Below are positions 20,173 to 64,000 of a stretch of DNA of 64,000 bases, piece by piece (positions within the stretch are counted from its first letter, which is position 1; every line of letters starts with the position of its first letter). The notes beneath the pieces were generated by a model. The model was given only the letters and a program-made list of their open reading frames with translations. It was not told where the DNA came from and searched no databases. Origin of the DNA: Bacilli bacterium (GTDB lineage: Bacteria; Bacillota_I; Bacilli_A; RF39; UBA660); contig JAVWCU010000001.1 of the NCBI GenBank assembly GCA_036648855.1, positions 3,121 through 67,120 on the forward strand. The letters are read 5' to 3'. The translations under genes and the position numbers were made by a program.

Positions 20173-20874
20173 ATGTTAGACTACGTTGGTAGAGTAGTTA
20201 AAAAAACTGGAAATGTAATAGTAGGCTTAGCTAATAGTGGCTTAGTAAGTGGAGCATCTAAACTTGGTACTGGAGTATTAAAAGCTGGTGTTGAAGGTGG
20301 AGCAGGCTTACTTAACAAAGGAATTAAAGGTGCTCAAAAGAACATACCTAAATTAAAAAATATCAGTGGAAAACAAATTAGCGATGGCGTAGGAACAGCA
20401 GTTAATAAAACCATGGTTGGAAGAGGATCAGATTATAAACCTAAAGGAAGCTTTAGAGGTTCTCGTAAAAGTAGCGGAAGACCAAAAACTACTTATGTAT
20501 CAACTAATGATTCTTTTGGAGCATTAGATGCTATAACTGATAGAGCTAAAACATATATGGATGGAGCTGCTCATATTTTACAAGGAGATAGTTATTTAAC
20601 TGGTAAACAAGCTTTAATAAAAACAGGCTCTGATAATTATATGCCTTTTGGTTTAAAAGCTACAGGTCTTGGTACTACATTAGCAATAGGAGCTTCAGCT
20701 GCTTCAGGAATACCAGATGCTGCTAAACAATGAAATGATGGTAGAAAAGGATATAATCAAGATACACAACCTATGAGTATTGCACCACAAACACCAGCTT
20801 ATGCTAATAATGGTGGGGCTACAGGTGATTTAGTTTTCGCTTTAAATAATCTTAGAAATGGAGGAATGATGTAA
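20173..20874 (+). CDS. Gly-rich hypothetical protein (233 aa); one in-frame TGA (20731)
   Basis: AGAGGTGA RBS. Fragment 20173..20733 continues in frame to TAA 20872-20874 (checked). ATG of the next gene overlaps the TAA. Confidence 0.55.
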
Positions 20875-40973: not shown

Positions 40974-41013
40974 AAAATAAAAAATCAATTCAATTTTGAG
41001 GAGGAATGCTTTT

Positions 41014-43886: not shown

Positions 43887-43920
43887 AATAATAACTCAAA
43901 TAAAAGGAGGAATGTTCAAA

Positions 43921-44589
43921 ATGGCTAACAACATGTCTAGTGAACAATATACTAAAACGTATACTACTTTTGGTGGTAGTGATATAGTAGCTACTTTCAA
44001 TGGAAAAGTTATAGGTGAATTACAAGCAATCACTTATTCAATAACAAGAGAGAAGGTTCCTGTTTACACTATGGGTTCTGCAGAGCCAAGATCATTCTCA
44101 AGAGGAAAAAGAGGGATCGCAGGAAACTTAGTATTTGTAACTTTCAATAGAGATGCTTTACTTTCTGAATTAGCTGATGGACCATTAATACAAAAATATA
44201 AAGCTAATAACCAATTCACTCAAGGTGATAATGGAGCTGCTCAATTCATGTCAATAGAAGAGTGGGACGCTCATATGTCTTCTCTATCTGGTGGTGGAAA
44301 AAATAATGGAGATGGAACTACTGGTAAAAGTTTAAGTGACATGGTAAGTACATACAAAGCAAGATATGCTGATGAAATACTTCCATTTGATATAACTATC
44401 ACTTTCGCTAATGAATATGGTAACAAAGCTTCTACAGTATTATATGGTGTAGAATTATTAAATGAAGGAACAGGATACTCTATAGATGCTCCTACTTCAG
44501 AAAGAGCTTATACATTTGTTTGTAGATCAGTTGAAACTATGAAACCAATAAATGATGAATACAAAGGATTCATAAGCACTACTTGGTAA
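43921..44589 (+). CDS. tail tube protein (222 aa)
   Basis: directly downstream of the sheath gene. AAAGGAGG RBS. Followed by a strong terminator. N-terminal core is shared with the next two genes. No TGA. Confidence 0.6.
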   Translation: MANNMSSEQYTKTYTTFGGSDIVATFNGKVIGELQAITYSITREKVPVYTMGSAEPRSFSRGKRGIAGNLVFVTFNRDALLSELADGPLIQKYKANNQFTQGDNGAAQFMSIEEWDAHMSSLSGGGKNNGDGTTGKSLSDMVSTYKARYADEILPFDITITFANEYGNKASTVLYGVELLNEGTGYSIDAPTSERAYTFVCRSVETMKPINDEYKGFISTTW

Positions 44590-44598
44590 TAACCACAA

Positions 44599-44632
44599 GG
44601 AGAGGGAAAGAGATTTCTCTCTCTTTTTTATT
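44599..44632 (+). terminator. rho-independent terminator after the tube gene
   Basis: GGAGAGGGAAAGAG-ATTT-CTCTCTC followed by TTTTTTATT. Confidence 0.6.
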
Positions 44633-44675
44633 GCATATAATAAAAACATTAAACTTATACATAAAGGAGGACAAT

Positions 44676-47264
44676 ATGGCTACATTTAATTTAAATGGTT
44701 ATGATAGCTATTCTGGTTGCGATATCGTTGTTACTGCTAGACTAAATACTATAAGTGGTGGTAATGGCTCAGGAAAAGAAAAAGTATATACACTAGGCTC
44801 TATACAAACTCTTAGTATCTCCACACATCAAGATAAAAAACCTGTTAGAGTAATAGGAAGTGTAAATGCTCTTGATTATACAATGGGACAAAGAACAATA
44901 GCAGGTTCTTTAGTATTTGCTGTATTTGACCAACATTTTGCAACAGAGATGTTTAAAGACTTAGAAAAGATTACAGGTAAAACATTTTTCTTGCCAGATG
45001 AACTTCCAGCAATAGACTTAACAATTACTTTTGCTAATGAATATGGAAGAACATCTAGGATGGCTATATACGGAGTTAGAATAATTAATGAAGGGCAAGT
45101 AATGTCTATAAATGATTTATATACAGAAAACACTTATCAGTTTGTTGCTAACTCAATGGAGCCTTTAAAAAAGGGAACGCAAACAGGATCTAATTCAGAT
45201 AAGAATAAAGAAATACAAATAGCAACTAATTCTGATTTAGGAGATTCTAATCCTGTTTACAATGGAGAAGATATATTTACATATTCATTTGATAAAGATG
45301 AAAGCTCTTTAAAAAGAGTACTACTAAACGTAGATGTAGAGCAACCTACTTATGAAGGACAAGATGGTATTGCTAAATTTGGATTATCGCCTATTCAAAA
45401 AACAGGACTAGTAATTGTTTACAATCAACTTCAAGATAAAATAGAAACAGAGATATACATAACAAATGAACATACAAATATATATACAGTCTTATTAGAA
45501 CAAGGTTTATACTCTGCATGGTATGAAGACAATGGTCAAACTTTATCTAATACAGTAGTATTTTCTATAGATAAGGTAGGAAATTATAATATGAATTATG
45601 ATGATTCACCAATCATAGAAGATGTCAGTATTGATAAAATACAAATCTTATCCAACAATCCTTCTCATACAGCAGCGGTTTGTATTAATAATATATCCAA
45701 TAAATATTTAGAAATGGATTTATCATCTAGAAAATGTACATTTAAAAATCTAGAAGAAAATACAACTTATACTATTTATACTAAACATGAAAATTCGAAC
45801 TCTAAAAACATAATGTGTAAAACTTTAACAAAACAAGAAGAATATGTTACAGGTTTTAAAAGTTATGTTTATTATAATTCTAATTTATTATCTACAGATA
45901 TTGAAAACTACAAAGAAATATTAGATGAACTTAATAATGACCAAGAAGTATTATATACATTGTCAAAAAATAAATCTGATAAAGCTAAAGAAATTATATA
46001 TATGGCAACTAAATATAAAAATGAATTTAATAGAATCATTAATGAAGATAAAATTAATCTTATTCCAACTAAGAATTTAGATAATATATTTGGAAATACT
46101 TTTAAATTTAATAGTGGAGCATTAAAAGGAAATATATTTTCTGTTAAAAATAAAAAAGAATATTTTGTTTATTCAGAAAGTTATCCTATTGAAATAACTT
46201 ATAATGGAAAACAAAATTGGACATATAGTGCTACATCTATAGCTAACGATTATATAAAGTCTCCTAAATATGTTTATTATAATTTTGCTGAAAATGATAA
46301 AGCAAAAATAAGCAATTTATATGGAGAGGCTAATGTTTTAGATAAAATAGATTTAACAGACTATATTGCGAAAAATAGAAAATACTCAAATAATATATTA
46401 CAATGTTTAGCTGTTAAAGATAATAAGAATATAGATTTAAAATTATTAAAAGCTCCTCATGTAACATTAGATGAATATAGCAATATGATATTCGATGTAA
46501 ACTATAAAGACTTATTAGGAACAAGTAATAAAAACTACTTTATTTGTATATCCAATATTGCAGAATCTTTAGATAAAACATCATTTAGAAAAATTGGAAT
46601 AAAAGATAAAGATGAAAATATATTCGCAACTAAATATCTAACTGCTGCAAATCAAAATGATATTTTTGTAGTATGGATAGAAGATGAAAATAACAACATT
46701 ATATCAGACGTAGCTTTTTGTTCTATGTTAGAAGAAGTAGGAGATTTTAATATGACTCAAATTGAAAAAGCTATAGAAAAAATATTAGCACAAATGAGTT
46801 CATTCTCTTCTAAAAATAATATGTATGACATCATCTATTCTATAGCTAATGAAAATGTATCTATGAAAAACTTATATTATGAAATGGCAAAAACATTTAT
46901 AGACTTAAATATAACTAATTTAAATTCATCTTTATTTGACTTATTTAAAGTTAAATTTAATGAATACTATATAAATCAAGATAAGTATAGAAAAGTATTT
47001 TATAACAAAAATGAAAATAAAATAAGCTTTGAAACATTAAGTAAAAACGCACAATTAGTTAACATAAAGTTCAAACAAAATTATAATTATGAAATAGAAG
47101 TTAAAGATGAGCTTAGTACGACATTAGATACAGAATATGATTATCATTTAGTATATTTAATAGATAGTAATCCAATTATAAAATCTGGTTTTATATTTAT
47201 AGATTCTGGATACAAAGCTAATGCTCATAGTATTAGCATAGAGGAGGTAGAATGTAATGACTAA
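44676..47264 (+). CDS. tube-domain protein with ~670-aa C-terminal extension (862 aa)
   Basis: N-terminal 190 aa are paralogous to the tube protein (IDLTITFANEYGRTSRMAIYGVRIINEG versus FDITITFANEYGNKASTVLYGVELLNEG). AAAGGAGG 5 nt upstream of ATG 44676. No TGA. Confidence 0.55.
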   Translation: MATFNLNGYDSYSGCDIVVTARLNTISGGNGSGKEKVYTLGSIQTLSISTHQDKKPVRVIGSVNALDYTMGQRTIAGSLVFAVFDQHFATEMFKDLEKITGKTFFLPDELPAIDLTITFANEYGRTSRMAIYGVRIINEGQVMSINDLYTENTYQFVANSMEPLKKGTQTGSNSDKNKEIQIATNSDLGDSNPVYNGEDIFTYSFDKDESSLKRVLLNVDVEQPTYEGQDGIAKFGLSPIQKTGLVIVYNQLQDKIETEIYITNEHTNIYTVLLEQGLYSAWYEDNGQTLSNTVVFSIDKVGNYNMNYDDSPIIEDVSIDKIQILSNNPSHTAAVCINNISNKYLEMDLSSRKCTFKNLEENTTYTIYTKHENSNSKNIMCKTLTKQEEYVTGFKSYVYYNSNLLSTDIENYKEILDELNNDQEVLYTLSKNKSDKAKEIIYMATKYKNEFNRIINEDKINLIPTKNLDNIFGNTFKFNSGALKGNIFSVKNKKEYFVYSESYPIEITYNGKQNWTYSATSIANDYIKSPKYVYYNFAENDKAKISNLYGEANVLDKIDLTDYIAKNRKYSNNILQCLAVKDNKNIDLKLLKAPHVTLDEYSNMIFDVNYKDLLGTSNKNYFICISNIAESLDKTSFRKIGIKDKDENIFATKYLTAANQNDIFVVWIEDENNNIISDVAFCSMLEEVGDFNMTQIEKAIEKILAQMSSFSSKNNMYDIIYSIANENVSMKNLYYEMAKTFIDLNITNLNSSLFDLFKVKFNEYYINQDKYRKVFYNKNENKISFETLSKNAQLVNIKFKQNYNYEIEVKDELSTTLDTEYDYHLVYLIDSNPIIKSGFIFIDSGYKANAHSISIEEVECND

Positions 47265-48813: not shown

Positions 48814-49599
48814 ATGAGAATATCAAAGCATATAGAAAATCCAAAAACAGAAGCCGACTTCGATTTAATAATTAAGCAGATGTTCGCTGAATATGGCAAC
48901 ATTTGCTTTGGTGAATACAATGATGAAATATATATTTATAAATTATTAAACAGAAAGGCTTATAAGAATTTAATTTCAAATCCTAATTTAACCCAAATAG
49001 AAAAAGAAGACGAAGTATGTAAAGAATGTATATTATGGCCTAGAGACTTTAACCCAGATGTATGTGATGCTGGTTTGCCTACTCATTTATTTGAGCAAAT
49101 AATGACTAACTCTTTTTTAACTGGTGTTGATGATATGATAACATTAATAGAGGTATCGAGAGAAGAAGCTGATAATTTAGATTCACAAATGAGTTGCATT
49201 ATAAACGAAGCTTTTCCTAATTATTCTATAGAAGAAATAGAAGAGTGGGATATGATTAAGTTTTGTAAAATGTTTACAAAAGCAGAATGAAAATTAAAAA
49301 GCTTAAGAAGTTTGACTTTTGAAACAGATATGCTTGATTTCTTAAAAGAAATGACTCATGAAGATGAGTCTGTAAAGCAAGAAGCTACAAAACAAGAAGA
49401 AACAAAAGAAGTTCAACAACCTACAAGCAATTCTAAAAAAGTAAAAGTAGGTTCAAAAGAAATGACTCCCGAAGAATATAAGCAATATCAAGATATACAA
49501 AGAATGTTTCCAGATATAGATTGGGGAGCAGATGCAATGTATACAGGTTATGAAACTCAAACTATAAGTTCAGTACCTACTCCACTTAGAGTAAAATAA
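48814..49599 (+). CDS. hypothetical protein (261 aa), possible second tail chaperone; one in-frame TGA (49288)
   Basis: fragments 48814..49290 and 49312..49599 share a frame; the gap was checked. Confidence 0.4.
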
Positions 49600-49624
49600 A
49601 TAAAATACAAGAAGGTGAATTGAT

Positions 49625-52600
49625 TTGGCTAAAAAAAGAAGAGATAAAGAACGAGACCCCTCTTCAATAGAACAAGTTGCCAAAGTTGGAAAAGCTGCAT
49701 TATCTTTAGGGATTGGTGCAGCTTCTTTTACTAAAAAGGGATATGCTAGAAAACTTACTAGTGAAGTAGCACCAGCTTTAATTGGTACAACTAGAGCTAT
49801 TAAAAAAGATGTGCGTAACATTCGTTCAACTAAAAAAGGCATAAGCAAAAGATTAGATATCAAAGATTTAGAAAGCGTTTATAAAAGTCATTTAAAAGAA
49901 AATAAAACTTTTAAAAAACAATTAAAAGAAAACGCAATTGGTAAAAAGAAAAATGTTAAATTAAATATTGATGGTAAAAATAAATCTATCTTTGGTCAAT
50001 ACATAAACTATCAACAAGTAGTTAGTAATGAACTTAGAAGAACTTCTAGAGATTTGTATAGAGGTAAAAAAGAAACAGATTTTATAAATAATCAATTAAC
50101 AGGTTTATTTAAAAATAAAAATACTGACCATTTAAGAGAAGCTGCTTTTGATGCATTTGCTAAAATAGAAGAATTTACAACTGTTAATTCCAAGGGCGAG
50201 AAATTCTTTTCTCCTTTCATAGATGATAGTATTAAAAGATTAGATTTTGACAAAAAAGAAAGACAAATATTCTTAGAAAAAATATGAAATGAAAAAGAAA
50301 AAATTATCAAAGATTCGAAAGAAGAGCAGAAATACTCTGGCATAGAAAAGAATATTAAAAAGTTACTTGAAGAAAAACTTATGAAAAGTAAAAAGCAATC
50401 TGATACAACTTTTGGAAAGCTATCATCATTAGTAAAAAAAGTAACAAATAAAGACGTAGATTTAGAAATGGAAATATTGAATTCTCGTGGATTAACAGTA
50501 GGAGAATTCTTAGAAACTATAAATGATTCTAAAAATAAAGATATGTTTGATATGTCTCAATTTAATGTTAAATTAAAAAATAATGTTGGTAACAAAAATA
50601 ATAAGTATCAAGAAAAAAATATTATTGAAGAATTGACAGAATATGTAAGAAAAAATGAAGATTTCAAAAATGTATTAGTTGATGATTCATTAAGAATCGG
50701 TAGAGATGGACAAATATTTGATACTAATGATATGGATAATTTAAATGCAGCTATGTATAGAAAGTTTTCATCTTCTACTTTAGGCTCATTATTTTGGCAA
50801 ACAGATGTTAGATTAGGAAGAGAAACTCCGATACTTGCTCATGTTAGAGCAGGGCTTACAGGATCAGAAGCTGTTTATGAAGCTGGTAATAAAGGAGAAA
50901 CTTTACTTAAAGAAGGTAAAGTCATGTTAGCTAATGGTAGAACTAGATCAGCTGATTTATATGAAGTTAAATTAAACAGCAATGACGAATTAGTTTTAGA
51001 TATGAATCCTTTATCTGTTGATGGTTATATAAAAAATAATAAACATGGTAAAATGTCTAGAGCAAATAGAGAAGTAGTAGGTTCTAATAGAGATCCACTA
51101 GCAGCTATAGACGATGAATTTTTACAGCTACTTGATATAGGACAATCAGGCTCTCCAACATTAGCAGATAAATTAAAATCTAGATTTTCAAAAGGAAGCA
51201 ATTCTGATTGAATTAAAAATATTATAGATAGAACAAAGTCATTAGTTAACGATGATATGTCTGTTCAAGAAAGAATAGATATAACTGCTAAAAACAAATT
51301 AGCAGGTTCATTAACGAATGACGACTATGCAAATCAAATACTATATGAAGAATCTAGAGCAACTATAGCTGCACAATTACTTAAAGATACTAAAGAAGTA
51401 TCGTCTTTATTAAATGATTATACAGCTATGCACCAAATAGATTCTAATACTATAACTTCTTTACTAAATTCAACTATAGCAAATGATAATGGAGAAATCA
51501 CTAACTTAATTAAAGATGAACACTCAAGAAGAATATTACAAGCTTTAAGTAGCTTAGATGATATGAATACATCTCCTATGAATATCTTATCAGCGATATC
51601 TGCGAAAGAAGGCTCTTTCACTTTTGAAAAACTTTACAATAAAGATTTAGAGAATATCATAAATAGAGGACTTGTAAATACAGACCATATTATTCATATG
51701 CAAAATATTTCTCAACTTAAATGGGCAAGTTTCATTAATAATGAAGCAACTAATGTTATGGAAATAAAAGATATTATTAGAAGAGAAAGTATGAAAGAAG
51801 TATTACTAAGAGAAACTGCTGGAGGCATGGGAGTAACTGGAGATGTTATTTTTAATTCTGAAAGTATTAGTAGTTTAGAGAAAATACTATCTCATGAGAA
51901 CTTAACAAAAGAACAAGCTAATAATTTAAGATACGTAGCAAACTGGGGAGTAATGCAAAGTTCTTTAGGTATGTACAACGATACAGATGCTACTTTAAAC
52001 CTTTTAGATATTATGGGACCAGATGGTACAATAACTAAATTTGAAAACTTAATGAAAACTAATCCTAACTTTAAAGCAGAGTATAAAAGAATGTTAGATG
52101 ATATGTCATCAAATTATAATATATTTGATGCTGGAACTATAGGAAATATAAATGAAAACTATGCAGATGAATTTGCTAACTTTACATATAGTAAAAAATC
52201 AGCTCTGCATATTGATAACATATTGAATATAAATTCTATAAATGATGCTATCAAGTTAGCTGGTCAAGCTAAAAATGAAATCTTAGCTGGAAGACATGAC
52301 CTTGAAAATTATACTACATTAACTCAAATACCACAGTTTATGGTATCAAGACTTTCATGGGGATTAGAAGATTTAGGCTTAGGCTTTTCTAATAAAAGCA
52401 CAAGTTCTACTTTAGAACAAATAAAATCAATTGCTTTAAAAAGAGTTTTACCTGTAGCAGCAGCATTGAGCATATATGATTATATGGATTATGAATCAGA
52501 AAACTTTACAGGTGTATCTATGACAGGAGCAGCAGCTAATACTTTATCAAATTTTGACATAGCTTCTAGAAAATTAGCTTATTCAACTGGAGTAGGACAA

Positions 52601-55600
52601 GCATTAGATTGGTTTAAAGAATCGTCTATTGTAGGAGAATACTGGACAGGAACAACTGATTATCAAACAGCTGAAGAAAGAGAAGAATGGTATGAAAATG
52701 GATACCAAGCTGTTAGAGGAGGGCGTTTTTGGGGAATAGGTTCTACTTCAGAATTCAGAGGCTCTGCTATTCAATATTATCAACCTAACTATTTGAAAAG
52801 AGCACATTCTAATTGAAAAGAAATAGGTATATATGGAGATGCAGAAGAGAAATTCTCTCACAGCTGATTGCCTTCACTTAGACATCCTTTATCACCTCTC
52901 AAAGCAGCATTTGACCCATATTGATTAGAAAAAAAGAATATGGAAGATAGACCATACCCTATGACAGGTAAGATGTTCTCTGAAGGAACTCCTTGGGGAG
53001 CAGTGCTTAATCCTACTATTGGAGAAATATTAAAACCTGTTAGAACTTTGCCAGAAGTTAGAAGAAGACTTGGCAATGACGGTAGGGATATAAGATCTGT
53101 TGTAGAAGGAATAAATGAAAGAATAAAAAATAGAGCTAATGAAAATGATGATATGCTTATCATTAAAGGTACTGATATTAGAAATGCTTCTTATATTCCT
53201 TATGCTTCTCCTAATGATGGCTCTATGAATATTACATTTAGAGATGGAATGGCTATGGCTCCTGGAATAGGATATATGGAAGATGTATCTAATTTAAAAG
53301 GTTTTGTTCCTGCTAATGGAGAAATCAATGGAAATATGGATATGTCTTTAGTTGATGGAGATACAGAATTTGAACAAGCTGCTATAGGTATAACACAAGA
53401 ACTAAAACAAACTTCATATGATTCTAATTTAGTAGTTAATGATATATTATCAAATATAAATAAAGGTATTAAAAACTTAGGAGCTAAGTTTACATCTTAT
53501 GCTGGCGGCTCAAATAGTGCTTATAGTACAGATGGAACTATGCCAGATTTAGCACAAGGGACATATGTATATCAAAACTTAGTTAATCAAAGAAAAGTAT
53601 TTAATAGCAATTATTATGCTGATAACTATGACTATAAAATGCTTGATAGGAATATAGCAAATAATTACATGAGAGATTTTACAGGTTCTGTAAGAGAATT
53701 ATCTGGTATATATAATTTCTTAGGTGGTCTTGCATTTGGTGAAGATAGTTGAACATTTGAACTTGAAAATGCAAATAATATGACGAGTTTTTCTAGGCAT
53801 TTCTGAGATTCACAAGCTGGTGGAGTTGGTGGAGAATTCATGGAGATTGCTAGACGTTTTTTTGCATCAGAAGATAAATCTAGAATTAAATATAATCCTC
53901 TTAAAAATAGTATGGAAGAATGATTACCTTCAAGATTCTTAACAGGTGACCCATATACTGAACTTCCTAAAGGAGAAATGAGACTTCCTGGCAAGGGCTT
54001 TGAATCTATACATGATTTACATCCAGACCAGTTCGGTGAGTATGGTGCCTTTGATAGAATGAAGATACTTGGAGATGTTGCTCCTACTTCTGAAGAATAT
54101 AAGATATGGAGAAACATAGCTAGAAATACTATATCTGACGAAAACTTAATGAAGCAAATGGATGATATAGAACACCGTGCTCAGAAGATGTCTTCTAAAC
54201 ATGAGTTTTATGATTATAGATATTACAATAATAATCTAGATACTAAACACGGTATTGTTAAAAGTTGGAATAAAAATGTTGTAACTTTATCAAGTGGAGA
54301 ACAATTGAGACTTGGTGGTATTAATTTAACAGAAGAGGCTGACTTATCACAAGTGTTAACCGTTGGTCAAAAAATACATTACAGCTCATCTAAAGATGCT
54401 ATTAAAAAATTAGAAGATGGTATAGTAACTAATGCTGTTATCTATGAAAAACAAGGAGCATTTGGAACTAACATAAATAAATCTTTAGTAGATATGGGAA
54501 TGGCTGAAAGAGATGATCAAGATAAATCTGCTATAGGATATATGGCTAACGCTTCCAGTCTTCAACAAAGTTTAGGTATGGTCCAAGAAATGATAGGACA
54601 TGCCAATATCCCATTTGTACATAACAAATTCTTAAATATAGAAACTGCTAGAGAGTCTTATAAAAATGAGCATGTATATGGAACAACATTTGCTACTTGG
54701 GATCATCCAATAAAAGGTTTTGTTCAACCAATGTTAAATCAAACGTTTGGACAAAGTATGGCACAACATGCACTTGCAGTAGGCTCTTCTGCTTTATACT
54801 TTAGACTCAAAGAACATGGCACTAGCAAAGGTGTTAAATTTGCAGCAGGAGCAGCCATGGCTACAGCTAACCCTTCGGTTCTACTTGGTATGGGAGTAGA
54901 GTTTATAAATAAATTAGGTGTCAATGCAGTAGGTGGAGGAAGCAATTCTTTAAATATAGAAAGAGGGGCAAAGATAGGTTCTGTTATAGGGACTATAGGC
55001 TGAGGGCTTGCTAATGCAGAAAACCCATTAAAAGCAACTGCTTCATTTGCTATAGCTGGTGAAACTATATCAACTTATCTTAAAGCTGGAGAACATTATG
55101 GAGTAGGAAAAGGAGCCTTAATAGGAGCTGGTATTGGACTTGCAGTATCAGCAATAAAGAATCCTGGATTCTCTAAAGAGATGTTTAGAAGTAAGTGAAT
55201 ACCTAAAGATACTGAAAAGAAATATGAAATGGATGAATACTTTGATAGGCTTGAATACATAAAAAATAAAGGTTTATATGAACAAGCTTCTTTAAGAGCT
55301 GGATTGTTCGAAGGTAATCATACCATAAAAGCAGTATTTAGAAAATTAGATAAAAATAAAGAAAAAATAGGAAGGCTTACAAAAAAGGCTGAAAAACTTA
55401 GTAATAAACATTCAGCAGGTGGTTATGAGTATGAACAAGAAATGCTCAAAATTAATGAAAAGATAATGGCCCTTCAATCACAACAAACAGCTTTTAAAGG
55501 TGGTAAGTATACTAAGGCAGCAGTAGCTTACAAAAAAGCAATGGACTCTACCATATATGGAATGAGCGAAGGAGCAACGCCAGACGAAATATTATCTTCT

Positions 55601-56152
55601 GTACCTGTTCAATATAAAGACCACTTTAAATCTTTCATAGACGAAAGAAGTAAAAGTGAACGAAAAAAAATATTAAAAGAATTACCAGAATATCTACGTA
55701 AGCCTTTACAAATTGCTTGGGGTGAAAATGTTGACAAAATAGATAGTAATGGAAAGTTTTTCAAAAAACATGAATTACCATCTATGGCATGAAAAGGATG
55801 AAAGCCTAGCATAAATCTAAAACATGTTAAGATGAAAACTATTCAAAACGAAGGTATGTTGCTTTCTAATTTTGGATATTACGATTCTGAAAAATCTAAA
55901 ATGGAATATCATATGGCACCTGATATAAATAATTTTGATAAAGGCGGTAGCAGTGGCTTAAGTTATATGGCCAGTATGACGGCAGCATTGTCAGGAGTTG
56001 GAATGACAGTACAAAACATTACTGTTGAACCAACATCCGCTCCAGGATTATGAATAGTTGGAGATATAAAACAAACTGCTAAAGATATAGGTAAGATAGG
56101 TGATTATGCAGTAAACTCAGGAATTCAAACTCTAACTTCACTATTATTCTAA
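49625..56152 (+). CDS. tail tape measure protein (2175 aa) with 13 in-frame TGA
   Basis: seven track ORFs (49625, 50381, 51257, 52940, 53978, 55229, 55832) are all in one frame. Every gap was checked codon by codon and contains only TGA, never TAA/TAG, until TAA 56150-56152. Gly-rich hydrophobic stretch GALIGAGIGLAVSAI near the C-terminus. Sits after the chaperones. GAAGGTGA RBS with TTG start. Confidence 0.65.
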
Positions 56153-56166
56153 AGGGGCTGATAAAA

Positions 56167-56463
56167 ATGAATATAACTCAATTTTTAAATCTTGATGCGA
56201 CTATAATAGTAGCAGCTATAGGATTGTTAGGAACTGTTTATACAGTTAGGACAAACACTTTATTACAACACAATAAACAACTTATGGAAATGTTTGAAAT
56301 TCAACAAGATGAATTAATTAAGCTGAAAGAGCAACATTCAGAGGAAACAAGAAGGCTTGAAGAAAAAATATTATTGCTAACAACTGAAAATACCGATTTA
56401 AGAAAAGAAGTTATAGATTTAAAACTTACATTAGGTCGTATTAACAAAGAGTTTAGTATATAA
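56167..56463 (+). CDS. small membrane/coiled-coil protein (98 aa)
   Basis: N-terminal TM helix IIVAAIGLLGTVYTV. AAGGGG RBS. Followed by a strong terminator. Confidence 0.5.
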   Translation: MNITQFLNLDATIIVAAIGLLGTVYTVRTNTLLQHNKQLMEMFEIQQDELIKLKEQHSEETRRLEEKILLLTTENTDLRKEVIDLKLTLGRINKEFSI

Positions 56464-56555: not shown

Positions 56556-59500
56556 ATGGCTTATAATAAAAAGACAACCGTATATGAATCTAATTATGAT
56601 TTAGCTTTAAAAGCTAAGTTAAAACAACAAGCTATCAAAAAGATGGAAGATAGAAACACTATGTCTAAAGAAGATATGTTTAACTATTTAGAATACTTAG
56701 CTCCTGGTAATGATTATGTAAAAGAAAGCAATCTAATAATCAAAGCTAGTAAAAATAAAGTATTGAAAAATAAAAGTTTAAGACCCGATTACAAAGACGT
56801 TAATGATATATTAAAAAACTTAAAAGAATATAATTTTTATGACATTATATCTAATAAAAACCAGACAGGTTCTGAACTGATTAAAAAGACTATAGATTTC
56901 AATGGGAAGATATTTCATAGTAATCAAAAAGGAGGTTCATCAAATGAATCTTTAGGTACATGGAATGAATCTTTTAGAAATTTCACTAGTTTAAAAAAAC
57001 AAGCTAAACTAGGAAATGAAGCAACTGTATTTGGATTTGACTTAGAGACTGTCGGAAGTTCACTTCCTGAAGGCATGTGGAAAGCGGATCACATAACAGA
57101 GTTTTCTATGCAAGAGATGAATTTAGCAACTAATGAAATATTAAGAAATGACACTATTGCTATTGGTCTAACAGAAGACCAAGGTAAGAAAATTATTGAT
57201 GATATAGAAAAAGCTATTAAAAGTGGAACTTTAGAAAAGAACGAAAATTTAAGAGTTTCTGCTATGAGATATAGTTTATATGGAGATGATAAAGTTACAT
57301 ATGAAAAAACAGCTGAAGGATATTATAAATTTACAAATTTTATAGATTCTAAAAAACATGAAATGTATAACATTGAAAAAATCAAAGCTGGTGTAAACAA
57401 GTTCGTCTCTATGGGTAATGACACTGATTATATAAATGGAGTAAGAGCAGATCACTATTATGTAGGACAATCAATAAAACATATGAAAGACAAAGTAGTT
57501 GATAAACAAACTGCTATGTTATTAGGACAAAATCATTTAGGACATGATAATCCTATTATGCAATATCAAATGTCTTTATGAAATGAACTATATAAAGATA
57601 AAACTAATATGTTCGAAAATCTAGATTTAACAATGTCACCAAATCAAACAATAGATTTACTTGGAGGCCTTAGACTTCATTCAGAATATTACGATACAGG
57701 AGATTTATATCCTAAAGCAAAAGGATTAAATATGTCTGAAGTTAAAACTATTAGAGGGCAAGAATACTTAGTACAAAGTCACTTAAAAAAATGGTTTGAA
57801 CAAAAAGGATTAAAACCCCATTTAGCAGAAGATGATGTTACAGCTTTACTTGGATTATTTACTATGGATTCAGAAATATTAAAAAGTGGAACTTTAGTTG
57901 ATTTAATAGGCGATAAGATGTCTAAAGTTAATTATAAAGAAACAGCTTTAGAAACAAATAAGCATATTTTAAAAGCTAAAAAAAGAGCTGGTCTTTATCA
58001 AGGTAAAGGTTATTTAAATTTTGCTAATGACAAAGAAGGGAATATATATACTGCCAGTGATCATATCTTAAGTGATACAGATGGATTTGCTAAATCTAAC
58101 GGAGGAGTTATTCATAATGATTTCAATGTTGGTGCAGGAATCAATAAAGGGGCATTTTATGATTTAAAAGATATACAAGAAATAACTATTGATGACAATA
58201 TAAGATCTCAAATAGATAAAGTAGCACCAGAGTATTCTGGAAATAAATTATACCATGTTAAACTTGGAATGATAACTTCAGATAATCACAAAGATACTAG
58301 ACTTGGAAATTTAGAGCAAAATATAATATTAAAAAGTGAACAAGAATTACAAGGATTCTTAAGTTCTACATTTGATGTTGTAGCAAAAAGAGATGAAAAT
58401 GGAAATATACAAATAGCTAAAGAACATATAGAAGATTTTGATATTAGAAAACTATCAGATGTTAAAGGAAGAGCTGTAGCTAAAGATGTTAATAAAAATT
58501 ATGATAAAAATCATAATGAATTATTAGAATCAGCTGTAGAAGCTCATAATAAAAAGCTATTAGTTTCTAGAGCTGAAAATTCATTTTTACAAGATGATTC
58601 ATTTAATAAATTATCAAAAGCTTTAACTTTAAAAGATGACTTAAAAGATTTCTTAGAACAAGAAAATGTAAAAGTAGAAAGTTTAAAACAAAAAGAAATA
58701 AACCAAATTATGTCTGCTAAAGTTGCTAGTGGCAATATGCCTTTAGGTTTAAATGAAGTACAGCTTGAACATGCCAAAGAAATAATAAATAATGCATTGT
58801 CTTACAAAAAAGATTATGCAGATCCTAATTCAATTACAAGAGTACTTGATTCATCTATAGACAACTATTCATCAGCTATGATTTATGTTGAAAACAATAA
58901 TAATGTATTGTCTAAAATAATAGATACATTAAAACAAAGTGAAATGTTTACAAAAGAAGATGGTAGATATAAAAATTCAACTAAAGAATATAGACAAGAA
59001 GTATTCAATAGAGTTTACAAAAAAGTGAAAGAAGAAACTGCAGAACATATTTATAGAAATCTAAATGTTAACAACCCTATAAAAAACAAAAGTATTTTAA
59101 ATGACGAAACTTTACAAGCTGCTGTAAGTGAATTTAGAAACATATATGAAGTTGATTATAACAAGATAGCTAAAACTCCTAAAGTAAACTTTGTTAGTAT
59201 TGCTAAACCAGAAGAATTACAAAATTTAGTAAAGTTAGATATATCAACAAAAGGTGCTTCATATAAATTAACTGATGCTGCTATAGATGCTGTCTATGGC
59301 AAAGATTATAAAAGAAAAATAGATAATGCTCATAAAAATGTAGCTGTTGCAAAAATGTTTAATTTATTAATGGAAGATGAAAATTTAAAAGAAACAGATG
59401 CTTTTAAAGGTATTATGTCTAGATACGGATATAATGAAAAGACTAAAAGTTTTAAAGAAAATATAAATCATATAGATATATCTGAGCGTATTGTTTCTGG

Positions 59501-62500
59501 CATGCAATCATTAAAAGAAAAGAATGTTACAGCTGGAATAGTTAATACAAAAAGAGCTTTTATGAAATCTTTAGAAGGAACCTCTGGTTATACCAAAGCT
59601 TTAAACAGCGAAGAAGTATTAAATAAAGTAGATGATATAGCAAAAAGTGTTTTAGATAATTTAGATATGACAATTATAAACACAGCTAAACCAAAAGATC
59701 AAATATCAGAATTAGTTGAAAATAAGATATTAAAACATTATATAGCTGATAGCAATACTGTTGAAAAAGCTCAAGATTGGGTTAATAATCCTCAATTAGA
59801 AATGTTATATAAAAAAGGAAAAAAAGATTTAAAAGAATATCTTACTGATACAATATATGGATTTACTAAATTAGGAGCAGAAGTCTCTGTACAAGAAAAT
59901 GGTGCATTAATTGTTTCTAGAAATGGTGAAACAAAAGCTTTAGAAACAATACCTAAAATACTTTTAAATGATAAAACTTTATACACAGAAATAGGCAGTC
60001 AAAAGTTTCAGTTTAATAGAGTGTTAGATATTAAAGGTGGTACAAGATTAGAAGGAGATGTAAAGACTACTATAAGTAGTATCAATAAGTATAGCAATAG
60101 TGCTTATGTTGATAAGTTAGCAGAAGAATTTGATCTTAATAAAGTTTATGATTCTTTATGGTCACGTATAGGAAGAGATATAAATGAAATAAGAAAAGGT
60201 TCAACTATTAATGGATTCAGTGGAAATGATATCATATCGAATTACAATGTTGATATGGGTGAAATCAAAAATGTATTATATGATATATTTAATAAAGATG
60301 GCAATCATTATGGATTATTTGATAACATAGATTTCCCTGATAAACAAATACAAGAAACATTAAAAAAGAAACTAGAAAATGTAGGTCCTAATAAACTTGA
60401 TAATAAAGGACAATTAAAAGAACTAGGGCCAGATATTACTAGAGATATTGCAAAAGATACTATTCATATGTTGCAAGAATTAGCTAATAAACAAGGTTTT
60501 ACAGATGACTTTAAAACAATCGTAGCTCAATTAGGATTATCTGGACAAGAAAAAAGAGTAGCTGGATTAACAGCCTACTCTGGAATAGAAAGACCTACAA
60601 ACTCTGTATTTGGTGTATTCGATAATGTACAAAGACCGCCTATTACTCAGTCTGGTAATGCAAAATTCTTAAGAGAATCTGATATAGAAAAAGCTAAAGA
60701 TTTAAATGTATTAGCTGGAAACGTAATTAGTTCTGCGTCTATGAATGCTAAAGGATATAGAAATTTTGATGGGGTAGGAAAAGCTTCAACAGATGTAATG
60801 ATGGATATATCTTATGTATCTACAAACGCTTTACATGTATTAATGGAGAGTAACTTTGAAGACGTTATTAATAAATCTAGTGTAGAATATGGAACAAAAG
60901 AAGCATCCAAAAAAGCTATGGAGCATTTAAAGAGTACACTATCTACATTTGAACAAGAAAGAATTATTGACTCTAGAGTTCATGAAGCTGTATATGGATT
61001 ACAAACAGCTAATACTCAAAAGCTTAGTAGAAATCTAGATGCAATAGGTATGTCTAAAGAACTTACAGATGAAGAATTCAAAAAGCAATTTGATTTCATA
61101 ACTAATCATAGAGGCAATTTTTCATATTCTAATGGTAAGCTAGAATTTAAATCTTCTGTTGGTACATATGTTAAACGAGGAGAAGGAACTATACAAACTA
61201 AAGGTTTTGCAGATTTACCTACATCGTTCTCTTCTAAAATGAAAGATGGAGTATTTAATTTTAATTTCTATAATGAAAATGGAATGAAACTTAGAGATAA
61301 TGAAATAAATAATTTAATAAATGATAATATAGAACACTTTATTAAAGATGGCAAACTTGTAGATAAAGCAGCTTTGCCAAAAATATTAGAAGATTTATTA
61401 GAAACTAAAAATATTAAAGGTCAATATGCTATAGAAGATGCAGCCGCTTTAGGATACGCTAAAACAATGACTAGCGGTGCTGAAAAAGGTATGACTGATA
61501 TTGTATATGCTACTACTGGTAGATACAATAAAGAAATAGAAAAAGTCTTTAAAAATATTGGCATGTGGGATGATGTTAAAGCAAAAGTTTTAACAGAAGA
61601 AGGAACAGATGCTATATTGAAAAGAGGTATGGATAGATTTATAGGTAAACATACAGATATGACTCCTGAGCAAAATATACTTCATGGAACTAGCTTTAAA
61701 AATATTAAAGAATTAAAATCAGCAATGGAAACAGAAAGACATATGAATTCTAAATTATTGTTTGAACATGTACTTGGCGGTAAGACTCATATGTTAGCAA
61801 ATGATAATATATTAGGACATGAAAACTTTGGAGCGATGTATCAAGGTTCTTTATCTAAAGCTATAGATCTTTTTGGTAAAAATCATAAAGATGGTTCAGA
61901 TGGAGCTATTAAAGAAATTATTGACATCATGAATAATGGTGTTGAAAAAACTTTAAAAGATGGTACTGTAAAGAAGATAGATGCTTCAGAATTTCAATTT
62001 TTAGAAAACTGGAATCTTAAAGATGGTAAAGTTGACATAGGAAACATAGGAGTTCAATATAAAAATGGTCGATTCCATATCAATGAAAATTTTTTAACTA
62101 ATCCAGACAATGTATCTAATCTTAATTCAAAGAAATTCAATAATTTATTAAGAGAGATAGATTCAAGATTTGCTAAAGACGACTCTTCTGATGATAGATT
62201 AGTATGGAATAATGTTTATATGCAAACTGGAGATGTGGACGAAAAAGGAACACCTGTTTTAAAAAAAGTAGATGAAGTCGTTGGTTCATTTTTCACTAGA
62301 GAAATAGATGGAAAAAGAGTAATACTTGGTACTCAATCTAGAGAAAATAATAAATATGTTACAGATGTAGAAACACAATCTGGAGTAACAGATGAATATT
62401 TCCAACTAAAAAAAGCTATTAAAAAAAATAAAATAGATTTAATAAATAATCAAAAGTCATTAAATGAAACTGATGATAAGCATTTAAAAGCATCGCTAAT

Positions 62501-63416
62501 AGAAGAAAAAATTTCATTAGAAGCAAAAGGGCATAAATTAGAATCTGAATTAAGCTCTTATGATGGTGCTGTAAAAACAATGAAAGTATCTGATCAAGAA
62601 TTATCTATTTATAACAGAGTTGCTATAACTCAATCCCATGTTAATAAAGTCAATGATTTAATAAGCGAAGGTAAAATAACTGATGAATCATTAGCAGTAG
62701 ATTCTCTAAGAGGACATGTTATAAAAAATGTTGATGGCCAAATAATGTTAGAAGGCCTTGGGCTTGAAAATGAATTAAATTCAAATAAAGATGTCTATAG
62801 CAAAGGTGGAATTAGAGTACTAGATCCTTTTGTATCAAGATTAAAAGAGAAATTGCTTTTCAATGAATTAGAGGATGAAGTATTAACAATGAAATATGTT
62901 AATAAACATCCAGAACTTCTAGACATATATAATAAAGCAGATAGCAGAGGAGAAACAATAGGAATTAATAAAGCTAAAGAAATACATCAAGGACAGCTCT
63001 CTATAGATTCATATAATTTCAATCTTAGCTCACAAACATCTGAACAAGTTAAAGCATTAGAAAATAAAGGTTTTAGAAGAACTAATATAAATGAATTATC
63101 TTTTGATGCTGATGATGTTGCTACAGAGAATTTATTAATTGACTTTGGTGAGGAATTTAAAGAACATAGATATTTAGCAGTTCCTGGCAACGGTAAATCT
63201 ATAATGGATGAAGATCTTAGAAAAGAAAGTCAAAATCAATTAGCAAGTCTTCAACATAGATACCAAGAGTATGCATCTTACAAAGGAAAAGATCCTGAAA
63301 AAACAGAGCAATTATGAAATAACATCATTAAACAAAGAGATGATGTCATGGATACAATAGAAAATGAGATGTACGGTAAGCATGGTATATTCCATAATGC
63401 TTCTAAAGTTGAAATA
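56556..63416 (+). CDS. giant virion-associated protein (2286 aa); two in-frame TGA (57579, 63315)
   Basis: fragments 56556..57581 and 57609..63317 share a frame. Reading TGA 63315 as Trp adds 33 codons to TAG 63414-63416; checked. Lies downstream of the tape measure gene. Confidence 0.6.
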
Positions 63417-64000
63417 GATAATGCTTCTTATCGTTTAAAAGCTTCTGGTATAATAGGAGACCAAACTAATCCTACTCTTAGAAACTATGCTTCTCATAAT
63501 GGAGTTAATGTTATAGATTCTTCTAAAGCTGGAGTATTAGATATCGCTATAATAGATGGAAAGACAATAACTGAATTAGAAAGCAAAGGAGTTTATCATG
63601 ATTATAAATTTGTATCTAGAGATCAAATGGATAACATGGGATTCTTTAGAGAAGACAGGCTTAAACAATTTGGATTTGAAGATGATGCTAGCAGTACTGC
63701 TATTGAAAAAATGGAGGATTTTTTAAAGACTCATGGTACTATGGATTTATCCGACCGTTATCCAAATACAAAAACAGGTTCTATCTCTACTGCTAGAGTA
63801 TTTTTAGACAGCACTTTAACTGGAAACCAAACTAAGGTTTCAGCATCGTTAGCTCTTAAAGCTAATGGAGACTTTGATGGAGATTCATTCTCTTCTTTCC
63901 ATTTAGAAAAATATGATAGCGAAGGTCGTAGAATAGACGGAGCTTATTATTCTAAAGTAAAAATTGATATAACTAAACAACTCAATGACGAAGGAATACT
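63368..64000 (+). CDS. two-barrel RNA-polymerase-like protein, N-terminal 211 aa (gene runs off the right edge)
   Basis: Frame +2, open from TAA 63329-63331; ATG 63368. GKHGIFHNASKV (63374-63409) resembles the beta motif GRHGNKGVISKI. NGDFDGDSFSSFH (63863-63901) resembles the beta-prime NADFDGD..H motif. No stop to the window end; checked codon by codon. Confidence 0.5.

What the first reader, a model, noticed from the sequence alone, without database searches (positions are those of the whole stretch)
49625..56152. 2175-aa tape measure protein encoded through 13 in-frame TGA codons
Seven ORF-track pieces are co-linear in one frame. The gaps contain only TGA. A single TAA ends the gene at 56150.

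This gene holds a third of all recoded codons in the window, so its translation depends absolutely on TGA suppression. A tape measure of this length implies a tail of about 300 nm, consistent with the 946-aa sheath.
Basis: seen in the sequence. Interest (0 to 1): 0.55.

Follow-up and report, generated by a model that had tools for sequence, protein, structure and literature searches.

The report
Recoded giant tail protein, probable tape measure
A 2175-residue phage tail-module gene really is read through 13 TGA codons as tryptophan, which is a known kind of phage recoding; calling it the tail "tape measure" is plausible but unproven, because its one studied relative was not given that role.

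Summary
Observation confirmed. Window 49625-56152 (+) is one 2175-codon frame with 13 in-frame TGA, no TAA/TAG, and a single TAA at 56150.

TGA means Trp, not Gly or stop. The TGA sites align with invariant or dominant W in standard-code homologues. TGA and TGG swap freely with a 68%-identical relative. No gene in the window ends in TGA. This is the known code-4 type of recoding described for gut phages.

The tape-measure label is only partly supported. The protein is the orthologue of Bacillus phage 0305phi8-36 gp145, a virion protein of unknown role. It is not the orthologue of gp146, which was annotated there as the hypothetical tape measure.

Support for the label:
- It sits directly after the two tail-chaperonin homologues.
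- It is predicted to be largely non-globular and helical, with Gly-rich hydrophobic segments.
- Its length is tightly conserved at 2102-2204 aa.

The rival candidate is the next ORF (56556 to beyond 64000, also read through TGA, about 3000 aa). It turns out to be enzyme-like, with an RNA-polymerase beta'-type fold and an invariant N[AG]DxDGD motif.

No tape-measure family model matches. The 300 nm tail estimate is therefore conditional. The recoding itself is ordinary; the re-reading of the two giant genes is the interesting part.

The parts
49608..49624 (+). Ribosome-binding site (GAAGGTGA) and spacer before the TTG start
   Evidence: Sequence read. The relative L006 also uses a TTG start.
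49625..56152 (+). Single 2175-codon gene (TTG start, TAA stop). It is the orthologue of 0305phi8-36 gp145 and the probable tape measure or tail-lumen protein.
   Evidence: frame. (gp145, Moorella CDS0026 and Edson homology). (full-length homologues of 2102-2169 aa at 39-68% identity).
50285..56053 (+). 13 in-frame TGA codons read as Trp, at 50285, 51209, 52814, 52865, 52922, 53750, 53804, 53921, 55001, 55196, 55790, 55799 and 56051
   Evidence: positions. (aligned to W in standard-code homologues). (TGA/TGG interchange with a relative).
49676..49729 (+). N-terminal hydrophobic Gly/Ala-rich segment (aa 18-35)
   Evidence: Read from the sequence, coordinates. It did not reach the 1.3 hydropathy threshold, whereas the equivalent segment of gp145 (aa 33-51) did.
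52721..53068 (+). Most conserved W/P/G-rich core (aa 1033-1148). It contains three of the TGA codons and is also conserved in Acinetobacter phage ME3 gp35.
   Evidence: 36% identity to gp145. (invariant columns). AlphaFold2 models it as unstructured at low confidence.
53705..54100 (+). Second conserved core (aa 1361-1492), with invariant W at TGA codons 1394 and 1433
54248..54517 (+). Degenerate staphylococcal-nuclease-like OB-fold domain (aa ~1542-1631). The Ca-binding Asp residues are not conserved, so it is probably inactive.
   Evidence: AlphaFold2 beta domain with pLDDT 70-80. Foldseek SND1 SN domains, E 8e-3. Pfam SNase at E 4e-15 in 2 of 21 family members (P0085).
54839..55156 (+). Gly/Ala-rich hydrophobic (membrane-like) segments, aa 1739-1844
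   Evidence: Hydropathy peak at aa 1826-1844. gp145 has equivalents at aa 1538-1599.
55955..56149 (+). Conserved C-terminal tail with a hydrophobic segment
48390..48812 (+). Tail-chaperonin homologue 1 (140 aa; resembles 0305phi8-36 gp143/gp144 and Moorella CDS0024)
   Evidence: E 1e-15 to 1e-8.
48814..49599 (+). Tail-chaperonin homologue 2 (261 aa, one TGA). It shares its N-terminal domain with the 140-aa protein, giving a G/GT-like pair without a frameshift.
   Evidence: E 8e-28 to Moorella CDS0025, 7e-15 to gp144. Hardies 2007, PMC2147016.
47257..48351 (+). gp142-like virion protein (364 aa)
40996..43854 (+). Tail sheath (952 or 946 aa)
   Evidence: PHROG 16991 tail sheath, E 7e-59.
43912..47264 (+). 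Tail tube (43912-44589) and tube paralogue with a long extension (44583-47264)
   Evidence: Both hit PHROG 9206. That family is labelled 'major head protein', but it corresponds in position to 0305phi8-36 gp140/gp141, the tube and tube paralogue.
56167..56463 (+). Small 98-aa ORF with an N-terminal membrane-like segment and a coiled coil. It is conserved in the relative L006 (97 aa).
56556..64000 (+). Downstream giant gene, at least 2481 aa in the window and about 3030 aa in relatives. It is read through TGA 57579 and 63315. It occupies the gp146 ('hypothetical tape measure') position but is enzyme-like. It has exonuclease-like motifs at 57030-57848 and an RNAP beta'-type R-Y-P-N...NGDFDGD at 63753-63887.

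Best explanation
Window 49625-56152 is one gene of a roughly 200-250 kb contractile-tailed phage of the 0305phi8-36 lineage. The 13 in-frame TGA are read as tryptophan (code 4 type), so the full 2175-aa protein can only be made when a UGA-decoding Trp tRNA is available.

The protein is the orthologue of the virion protein gp145 of 0305phi8-36. Its most likely role is that of tape measure or tail-lumen protein:
- It would be loaded by the two chaperonin-like proteins encoded just upstream.
- It would lie extended inside the tail tube.
- After contraction it would be expelled, with its Gly-rich hydrophobic segments helping to form the passage through the host membrane.

What is shown: one gene; TGA = Trp; orthology and gene order; presence of the orthologue in virions.

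What is inferred: the ruler function; the membrane role; and that the recoding works as a late-gene switch in a host that uses the standard code.
For: One gene, TGA = Trp:
- No TAA/TAG in 2175 codons.
- There are 120 listed full-length homologues of 2102-2204 aa, apart from one of 2593 aa that carries a LAGLIDADG-type insertion.
- TGA codons 1394, 1433, 2056 and 2059 align with W in essentially all homologues, including the standard-code Bacillus, Moorella and Acinetobacter phages. None aligns with G.
- In the standard-code relative P0159 (28 TGG, 0 TGA), 9 of the 13 sites are W.
- Against the relative L006 there are 9 TGA/TGA, 3 TGA/TGG and 8 TGG/TGA pairs.
- Stop codons in the window are TAA 40, TAG 7, TGA 0.

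Orthology and gene order:
- 26-39% identity to gp145 over aa 884-2154.
- The gp142-like and gp143/gp144-like genes lie upstream in the same order.
- gp145 was identified in virions by mass spectrometry (GenBank note).

Tape-measure-like character:
- The gene directly follows the chaperonin pair.
- The AlphaFold2 model of the C-terminal 1186 aa of a 68%-identical orthologue (83% in this region) is non-globular: pTM 0.31, 51% helix, 72% helix over model residues 640-1100.
- It has Gly-rich hydrophobic segments.
- Its length is tightly conserved across a large clade.
- The only other candidate in the module is a folded, RNAP beta'-like protein.

Recoding as a late switch:
- The minus-strand block at 1-17.8 kb has 1 TGA against 12 TGG. 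The plus-strand structural block has 39 against 61 (p=0.03).
- Both a standard-code and a code-4 member exist in the same clade.
- The same pattern is described for gut phages by Borges et al. (bioRxiv 10.1101/2021.08.26.457843).
Against: - No tape-measure family model matches this protein, its relatives or gp145. No solved structure matches by sequence.
- A 1930-aa helical gp145 would span about 290 nm, against a tail of about 480 nm. That figure is for Bace-11, which is of almost identical morphology. The 486 nm figure for 0305phi8-36 itself is from my memory.
- The gene is separated from the baseplate hub by two genes.
- The AlphaFold2 model has low confidence. 'Non-globular' may partly reflect a shallow alignment, and the N-terminal 990 aa were not modelled.
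- No suppressor tRNA lies in the window or in the 26.5 kb of relative L006, so the decoding agent was not seen.
- The function of the minus-strand genes, assumed to be 'early', is unknown.
Confidence: 0.55

Rival explanations
1. The ORF is a real, recoded virion protein but not the ruler. On this view it is a gp145-type internal or ejected protein, for example a membrane-inserting pilot protein with a relic nuclease domain. Tail length would be set by the downstream giant protein, as annotated for gp146 in 0305phi8-36, or by both proteins in series.
For: - Hardies et al. assigned the tape measure to orf146, and they note chaperonins 'one gene removed' from it in other phages.
- The gp146-position proteins directly precede the hub. 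They share a conserved C-terminal module of a hydrophobic segment plus a short tail, as tape measures often do.
- gp146 length fits a tail of about 480 nm better (0.19 against 0.25 nm per residue).
- The big ORF has strongly conserved W/P/G-rich motifs and an SNase-like domain, which is unlike fast-diverging rulers.
Against: - At least about 950 aa of the downstream protein fold into a compact RNAP beta'-like structure (pTM 0.63) with an invariant catalytic-type motif. That is hard to reconcile with an extended ruler.
- In the standard-code relative L007, the gp145-like gene is not followed by any giant gene.
- The gp145 family directly follows the chaperonins in every locus examined.
Confidence: 0.3
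2. TGA is read as Trp simply because the host itself uses genetic code 4 (a Mycoplasmatota-type host). On this view there is no phage-controlled switch.
For: - TGA is never a stop in 47 genes of the window.
- GC content is low (about 29%).
- No suppressor tRNA or release-factor gene was seen in the 64 kb.
Against: - TGA makes up only 40 of 113 Trp codons. It is nearly absent (1 of 13) from the minus-strand block, unlike AT-rich native code-4 genomes, where TGA dominates (my knowledge).
- A clade member uses the standard code and even a TGA stop.
- Known relatives infect standard-code Bacillota or Acinetobacter.
- Borges et al. found most TGA-recoded gut phages to have standard-code hosts.
Confidence: 0.25
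3. The stretch is not one functional gene. On this view it is several adjacent genes, a pseudogene, or an assembly artefact, with TGA acting as stop.
For: Under the standard code the frame breaks into 14 pieces.
Against: - There is no TAA/TAG in 6.5 kb of 29% GC DNA.
- The alignment to more than 100 full-length homologues is continuous.
- TGA falls on conserved W columns.
- The TGA positions are shared with an independent assembly.
- Most pieces lack start codons or ribosome-binding sites (sequence).
Confidence: 0.02
4. TGA encodes glycine (code 25, as in Gracilibacteria or Absconditabacteria hosts) or selenocysteine.
For: Code 25 phages exist. GC content is low.
Against: - None of the 13 positions aligns preferentially with G. 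Eleven of the 13 align with W or another aromatic residue in standard-code homologues.
- TGA and TGG interchange between relatives.
- No SECIS-type or other RNA family was found. The only Rfam hit is a hammerhead ribozyme.
Confidence: 0.01

Closest known systems
Bacillus thuringiensis phage 0305phi8-36 gp145 (ABS83703.1, 'virion structural protein') and its relatives: Bacillus phages Edson, WH1 and KLEB27-3 gp031/033, Moorella phage MTATph1 CDS0026, Acinetobacter phage ME3 gp35
   Same: - Homologous over the C-terminal 60% at 26-39% identity.
- Same position directly after the two tail-chaperonin genes and the gp142-like gene.
- Similar size (1263-2025 aa).
- Gly-rich hydrophobic segments and the same conserved Trp residues.
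   Different: - Those genes use the standard code with TGG only; here half of the Trp codons are TGA.
- The N-terminal 880 aa are not recognisably similar.
- The function of gp145 itself has never been determined.
Tape measure proteins of long-tailed phages (lambda gpH, T4 gp29, T5 pb2, TP901-1 TMP)
   Same: - The gene follows the tail assembly chaperone pair.
- It is very long, largely helical or non-globular, and has hydrophobic segments.
- Its length is conserved within the clade.
- It carries an embedded accessory domain, as many tape measures do.
   Different: - No sequence or profile match to any tape-measure family.
- Not adjacent to the hub gene.
- It has long conserved Trp/Pro/Gly-rich stretches that are not predicted helical.
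- The embedded domain is nuclease-like rather than a cell-wall hydrolase.
- The ruler function is untested.
TGA-to-Trp (code 4) recoded gut phages, e.g. the Agate and Jade clades of Borges et al. (bioRxiv 10.1101/2021.08.26.457843; published in Nat Microbiol 2022 per my knowledge)
   Same: - In-frame TGA at Trp positions, concentrated in structural genes and scarce in the oppositely oriented block.
- TGA is not used as a terminator.
- Standard-code relatives exist in the same clade.
   Different: - This is a 0305phi8-36-lineage jumbo-type myovirus. I could not check whether this lineage was in their set.
- No suppressor tRNA, TrpRS or RF gene is visible in the 64 kb available.
For the neighbouring gene: virion-delivered giant RNA polymerases (crAss-like phage gp66, N4 vRNAP) and single-chain two-barrel RNAPs (YonO)
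   Same: - A giant (about 3000 aa) protein of a family whose 0305phi8-36 counterpart, gp146, is a virion protein.
- A beta'-type double-psi beta-barrel with an invariant N[AG]DxDGD and an upstream R-x-P-[NT] motif.
   Different: - It is encoded inside the tail module, at the position annotated as tape measure.
- It has an N-terminal exonuclease-like region and a tape-measure-like C-terminal hydrophobic module.
- A second (beta-type) barrel and any polymerase activity were not demonstrated.
- Iyer et al. 2021 list a different 0305phi8-36 protein as its YonO-like RNAP.

Membership tests
Tape measure protein (functional class) | Gene lies immediately downstream of the tail assembly chaperone pair | tested here: met
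   The 140-aa and 261-aa chaperonin homologues end at 49599 and the ORF starts at 49625. The same holds in all six related loci examined.
Tape measure protein (functional class) | Gene lies immediately upstream of the distal-tail or baseplate-hub genes | tested here: not met
   A 98-aa ORF and a gene of at least 2481 aa intervene. In relatives the hub-sized gene follows that second giant.
Tape measure protein (functional class) | Match to a curated tape-measure family model (Pfam, PHROGs, NCBIfam/TIGRFAM) | tested here: not met
   No hit for the window protein, P0001, P0009, gp145 or ME3 gp35. Tape measures diverge fast, so this counts only weakly against the label.
Tape measure protein (functional class) | Predominantly alpha-helical, extended and non-globular | tested here: inconclusive
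   AlphaFold2 of the C-terminal 1186 aa of an orthologue gives pTM 0.31 and 51% helix, rising to 72% over model residues 640-1100. The first 470 residues are unstructured at low confidence, and a small SNase-like beta domain is present. The N-terminal half was not modelled.
Tape measure protein (functional class) | Protein length proportional to tail length (about 0.15 nm per residue) | not testable with these tools
   There is no micrograph of this phage. For 0305phi8-36, the 1930-aa gp145 against a tail of about 480 nm (Bace-11 value) gives 0.25 nm per residue, which does not fit a pure helix.
Tape measure protein (functional class) | Present in the virion | not testable with these tools
   Known only for the orthologue: gp145 was identified by mass spectrometry (GenBank note).
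0305phi8-36 gp145 family | Significant sequence homology over the conserved C-terminal core, plus conserved gene order | tested here: met
   tblastn E 2e-48. blastp E 2e-54, 9e-43 and 8e-21 in three collinear blocks. The neighbours gp142, gp143 and gp144 are also homologous.
Code-4 (TGA = Trp) recoded phage | In-frame TGA aligns with Trp in standard-code homologues | tested here: met
   Four sites are invariant W, and 9 of 13 are W in the standard-code orthologue P0159.
Code-4 (TGA = Trp) recoded phage | TGA not used as a terminator; coding density is restored under code 4 | tested here: met
   Of 47 stops, 0 are TGA. Genes abut without gaps under code 4.
Code-4 (TGA = Trp) recoded phage | A UGA-decoding tRNA (phage suppressor or host tRNA-Trp UCA) is available | tested here: inconclusive
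   No tRNA in the window (ARAGORN; Rfam) or in L006. The rest of the genome is not available.
Code-4 (TGA = Trp) recoded phage | Recoded codons concentrated in late or structural genes | tested here: met
   1 TGA against 12 TGG in the minus-strand block, and 39 against 61 in the plus-strand structural block (Fisher p=0.03). That the minus-strand block is 'early' is an inference.
Two-barrel RNA polymerase (for the downstream gene) | beta'-type DPBB with the Mg-binding DxDGD triad | tested here: met
   [not shown]
Two-barrel RNA polymerase (for the downstream gene) | Second (beta-type) DPBB supplying the basic residues; polymerase activity | not tested
   Only residues 1830-3028 of P0086 were modelled. 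No second barrel was identified.

The most novel reading that the evidence does not exclude
In the whole 0305phi8-36 lineage, the gene long annotated as the 'hypothetical tape measure' (the gp146 position) may in fact encode a giant virion-delivered enzyme. That enzyme would combine an RNA-polymerase beta'-type catalytic barrel with an exonuclease-like domain. The gp145 family, to which this recoded 2175-aa ORF belongs, would then be the true tape measure. In this phage both giant genes are gated by TGA-to-Trp recoding, so that neither can be completed until UGA suppression is switched on.
Probability: 0.4. Interest if true: 0.6.

Novelty: new member of a known kind. Interest (0 to 1): 0.38.

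Why it matters
The recoding is a clean textbook example of TGA-to-Trp use in a phage structural gene. It shows concretely how standard-code gene calling would shatter a 6.5 kb gene into 14 pieces. It adds a jumbo-type 0305phi8-36-lineage myovirus to the recoded phages, with a standard-code cousin available for comparison.

The larger value lies in annotation. This family has at least 783 sequence clusters in public metagenomes and no functional name. The neighbouring 'tape measure' of the reference phage looks like an RNA-polymerase-like enzyme instead. If the gp145 family is the real ruler, tail-length predictions and the list of proteins thought to be injected by these abundant gut phages both change.

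Tried and rejected
Searches on the big ORF that found nothing:
- Pfam, PHROGs and NCBIfam scans of the ORF, its relatives and gp145 gave no meaningful hit.
- PDB sequence and profile searches gave nothing.
- Megablast of 40-60 kb against phage genomes gave no match.

Downstream giant protein by sequence:
- Neither blastp nor tblastn links it to gp146, apart from motif-level and C-terminal resemblance.
- Pfam on the fused N-terminus found nothing. In that query I mistyped the 9 residues after the first TGA; the true sequence is W-NELYKDKTN-M. This has a negligible effect on the result.
- A PDB search of its N-terminus found nothing, so the DEDDh exonuclease reading rests on motifs only. A Pfam RNase_T hit in the Moorella counterpart is the one piece of support.

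Structure prediction:
- A 68%-identical orthologue (83% in the modelled region) was modelled instead.

Source, host and code machinery:
- Look-ups of window proteins to find the source contig failed.
- Cluster names were uninformative.
- No tRNA or code-change gene was found in the window or in L006.

Literature:
- I found no tail lengths for ME3, MTATph1 or KLEB27-3, so protein length could not be correlated with tail length across the family.
- The BpSp virion 'RNAP beta subunit' could not be tied to this gene family and was dropped as evidence.

Readings rejected: code 25 (Gly), selenocysteine, pseudogene and assembly error, for the reasons given under rival explanations.
Full report
OBSERVATION

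Translating window 49625-56152 (+) gives 2175 sense positions interrupted by 13 stops, all TGA, and a final TAA at 56150. The TGA codons are 221, 529, 1064, 1081, 1100, 1376, 1394, 1433, 1793, 1858, 2056, 2059 and 2143. The frame opens after a TAA at 49601. A GAAGGTGA ribosome-binding site precedes the TTG start, and the closest relative also uses TTG.

The two other frames of the same stretch contain 179 and 207 TAA/TAG, while the coding frame contains none apart from the terminator. The open frame therefore cannot be chance.

Across the window I count 40 in-frame TGA in called genes, 13 of them here, so 'a third' is correct. The gene is not specially enriched, however. TGA makes up 13 of its 26 Trp codons, against 26 of 74 in the other plus-strand genes (p=0.24). 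The gene is simply long and Trp-rich.

WHAT TGA MEANS

I aligned the protein, with X at the TGA sites, against homologues from standard-code phages and metagenomic relatives. The phages were 0305phi8-36 gp145, Moorella MTATph1 CDS0026, Bacillus phage Edson and Acinetobacter ME3 gp35.
- Codons 1394, 1433, 2056 and 2059 fall on columns that are W in essentially every sequence.
- Codons 529, 1081, 1100 and 1858 fall on mostly-W columns.
- No TGA site falls on a Gly column.

A member of the same clade that demonstrably uses the standard code gives the same answer. This is NCBI GCA_045119835.1, contig JBGVED010000022.1. Its orthologue P0159 has 28 TGG and no TGA, and a neighbouring gene stops with TGA. 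P0159 has W at 9 of the 13 sites and Y or F at two more.

Against an independently assembled relative at 68% identity (L006), the window's TGA codons pair with TGA nine times and with TGG three times. The window's TGG codons pair with TGA eight times. That is the behaviour of synonymous codons, and it rules out assembly error.

None of the 47 genes in the window ends in TGA: the count is TAA 40, TAG 7. TGA is therefore Trp. The readings as Gly (code 25), selenocysteine, pseudogene or separate genes are rejected.

RECODING CONTEXT

The window has two transcription blocks, with a GC-skew switch near 18 kb.
- The minus-strand block (1-17.8 kb) holds unknown functions, a GIY-YIG nuclease and a SprT-like protein. 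It has 1 TGA against 12 TGG.
- The plus-strand block holds portal, protease/scaffold, major capsid, sheath and tube genes. It has 39 TGA against 61 TGG (p=0.03).

Borges et al. reported this partition for TGA-recoded gut phages, together with standard-code close relatives, and interpreted it as a late-gene translation switch in standard-code hosts.

No tRNA or code-change gene lies in the 64 kb or in 26.5 kb of a relative. The decoding agent was therefore not seen, and a native code-4 host cannot be excluded. I put that at about 0.25.

WHAT THE PROTEIN IS

No Pfam, PHROG, NCBIfam or PDB sequence match exists.

tblastn against phage genomes finds the C-terminal 60% in 0305phi8-36 ORF145 and its counterparts in Bacillus phages Edson, WH1 and KLEB27-3, Moorella MTATph1 and Acinetobacter ME3. 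The neighbours are homologous too, in the same order: gp142-like, two chaperonin-like genes (gp143/gp144), then this gene.

In the metagenome protein collection the family has at least 783 clusters. Full-length members run from 2102 to 2204 aa, plus one of 2593 aa that carries a LAGLIDADG-type insertion.

GenBank calls gp145 a 'virion structural protein' identified by mass spectrometry, and calls the next gene, gp146, the 'hypothetical tape measure protein'.

THE OTHER GIANT GENE

I therefore examined the gene in the gp146 position. In the window it starts at 56556 and runs off the end at 64000.

It is one gene read through TGA. The standard code splits it at TGA 57579 and TGA 63315. It nevertheless aligns continuously, at 46.7% identity over 2514 aa, with a single 3028-aa protein of the relative, P0086. 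The first TGA falls on a column that is W in 11 of 14 homologues.

It carries a polymerase-type motif.
- All 17 family members that span the site carry N[AG]DxDGDS. The window has NGDFDGDS at nt 63864-63887.
- About 38 residues upstream lies R-Y-P-N/T.
- The same pair of motifs occurs in the gp146-position proteins of Edson, KLEB27-3 and an abundant standard-code gut-phage clade.
- This mirrors the NRAPTLH...NADFDGD signature of RNA polymerase beta' (my knowledge).

Structure prediction agrees. An AlphaFold2 model of P0086 residues 1830-3028 is confident (mean pLDDT 69.5, pTM 0.63).
- Every one of the top 50 Foldseek PDB matches is an RNAP largest-subunit chain. Examples are Thermus beta' at E 4.5e-4 and phage AR9 beta' at E 4.9e-4, probability 1.0.

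It has other features too.
- The N-terminus shows DEDDh-exonuclease-like motifs that straddle the first TGA: FDLETVG, NHLGHD and HLAEDD. This is a lead only, since there is no HMM hit, although the Moorella counterpart hits Pfam RNase_T.
- The C-terminal module, a Gly-rich hydrophobic segment followed by a short conserved tail, resembles that of gp146, Edson and KLEB27-3. It is thus the true counterpart of gp146.

A protein with at least about 950 compactly folded, polymerase-like residues is a poor candidate for an extended ruler.

BACK TO THE ORF IN QUESTION

I modelled the C-terminal 1186 residues of orthologue P0001, which is 68% identical overall and 83% in this region. The model is non-globular and of low confidence (pTM 0.31).
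- It is 51% helix overall and 72% helix over model residues 640-1100.
- The conserved Trp/Pro/Gly-rich first 470 residues are unstructured.
- The only compact element is a small beta domain at window aa ~1542-1631.

That domain resembles staphylococcal-nuclease OB folds (SND1, E 8e-3). Two divergent family members hit Pfam SNase at E 4e-15. In the window protein the Ca-binding aspartates are replaced (sequence), so the domain is probably a relic.

The protein also has Gly-rich hydrophobic segments at aa 1739-1844, at the N-terminus and near the C-terminus. In the one relative where no second giant gene follows (L007), the gp145-like gene still directly follows the chaperonins.

WEIGHING

For the tape-measure reading:
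- Position directly after the chaperone pair in every locus examined.
- Non-globular, helical character.
- Membrane-like segments.
- Conserved length.
- Virion presence of the orthologue.
- Loss of credibility of the competing candidate.

Against it:
- No family match.
- Not adjacent to the hub.
- Unusually conserved non-helical motifs.
- A length mismatch in 0305phi8-36. The 1930-aa orthologue spans about 290 nm at 0.15 nm per residue, while the tail is about 480 nm. That figure is the Bace-11 value, of 'almost identical' morphology; 486 nm for 0305phi8-36 itself is from memory.

I put the tape-measure or tail-lumen role at about 0.55, and 'virion protein but not the ruler' at about 0.3. The tail-length figure is correspondingly soft: 2175 aa gives about 325 nm at 0.15 nm per residue, but about 540 nm at the ratio implied by 0305phi8-36.

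NOVELTY AND SCORE

- TGA-to-Trp recoding of phage structural genes is known. This gene is a new, very clear member of that kind, in a lineage (0305phi8-36-like) whose isolates all use the standard code.
- The tape-measure label is plausible but untested.
- The more interesting result is a by-product. The 'hypothetical tape measure' position of this lineage encodes an RNAP beta'-like giant protein, which would shift the ruler role to the gp145 family.
- Interest in the finding as stated is about 0.38. If the reassignment is right, it would merit about 0.6.

Noticed in passing
[not shown]
   Followed up: yes
window 15124-15182 (-): A type III hammerhead ribozyme (Rfam RF00008, 53.7 bits against a gathering score of 48.5, E 4.5e-9). 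It lies in the gap between two minus-strand genes (15199-15741 and 14384-14884). Its role here is unknown.
   Followed up: no
L007 (NCBI GCA_045119835.1, JBGVED010000022.1, 238 kb contig), gene at 6201-12569: A clade member uses the standard code. Its 2122-aa orthologue has 28 TGG and no TGA, and the next gene stops with TGA. No second giant gene follows it; instead come a sigma-like protein, an amidase, RecJ and DNA polymerase III alpha. Both genetic codes therefore exist within one phage clade.
   Followed up: partly
window 54248-54517 (+), inside the big ORF: A degenerate staphylococcal-nuclease-like OB-fold domain is embedded in the protein. Two divergent family members retain a clear Pfam SNase match (E 4e-15). 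In the window copy the metal-binding Asp residues are replaced.
   Followed up: partly
window 1-17815 (-) versus 18470-64000 (+): Two divergent transcription blocks with a GC-skew sign change near 18 kb. The minus-strand block almost lacks TGA (1 against 12 TGG), while the structural block uses it freely (39 against 61). Stop codons throughout are TAA 40, TAG 7, TGA 0.
   Followed up: yes
window 43912-44589 and 44583-47264 (+): The tube and its long paralogue match PHROG 9206, which is labelled 'major head protein'. By position they correspond to 0305phi8-36 gp140/gp141 (tail tube and tube paralogue), so the PHROG label looks wrong for this family. Moorella phage MTATph1 carries the same mislabel in GenBank.
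   Followed up: partly
window 2831-3415 (-): An ORF with a GIY-YIG nuclease domain (Pfam E 6e-8), possibly a homing endonuclease. Related family members show mobile insertions in the big gene itself. P0145 is 2593 aa with a LAGLIDADG domain. KLEB27-3 has the gene split into gp031 and gp033 around a small ORF.
   Followed up: no
window 20874-22832 (+): A 652-aa Lys/Glu-rich protein with 5 in-frame TGA and a Gly/Ala-rich hydrophobic C-terminus. It has no family match, and it has the second-highest TGA count in the window.
   Followed up: no
window 56167-56463 (+): A small 98-aa ORF between the two giant genes, with an N-terminal membrane-like segment and a coiled coil. It is conserved in the close relative L006 (97 aa) but not in the standard-code relative.
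   Followed up: partly
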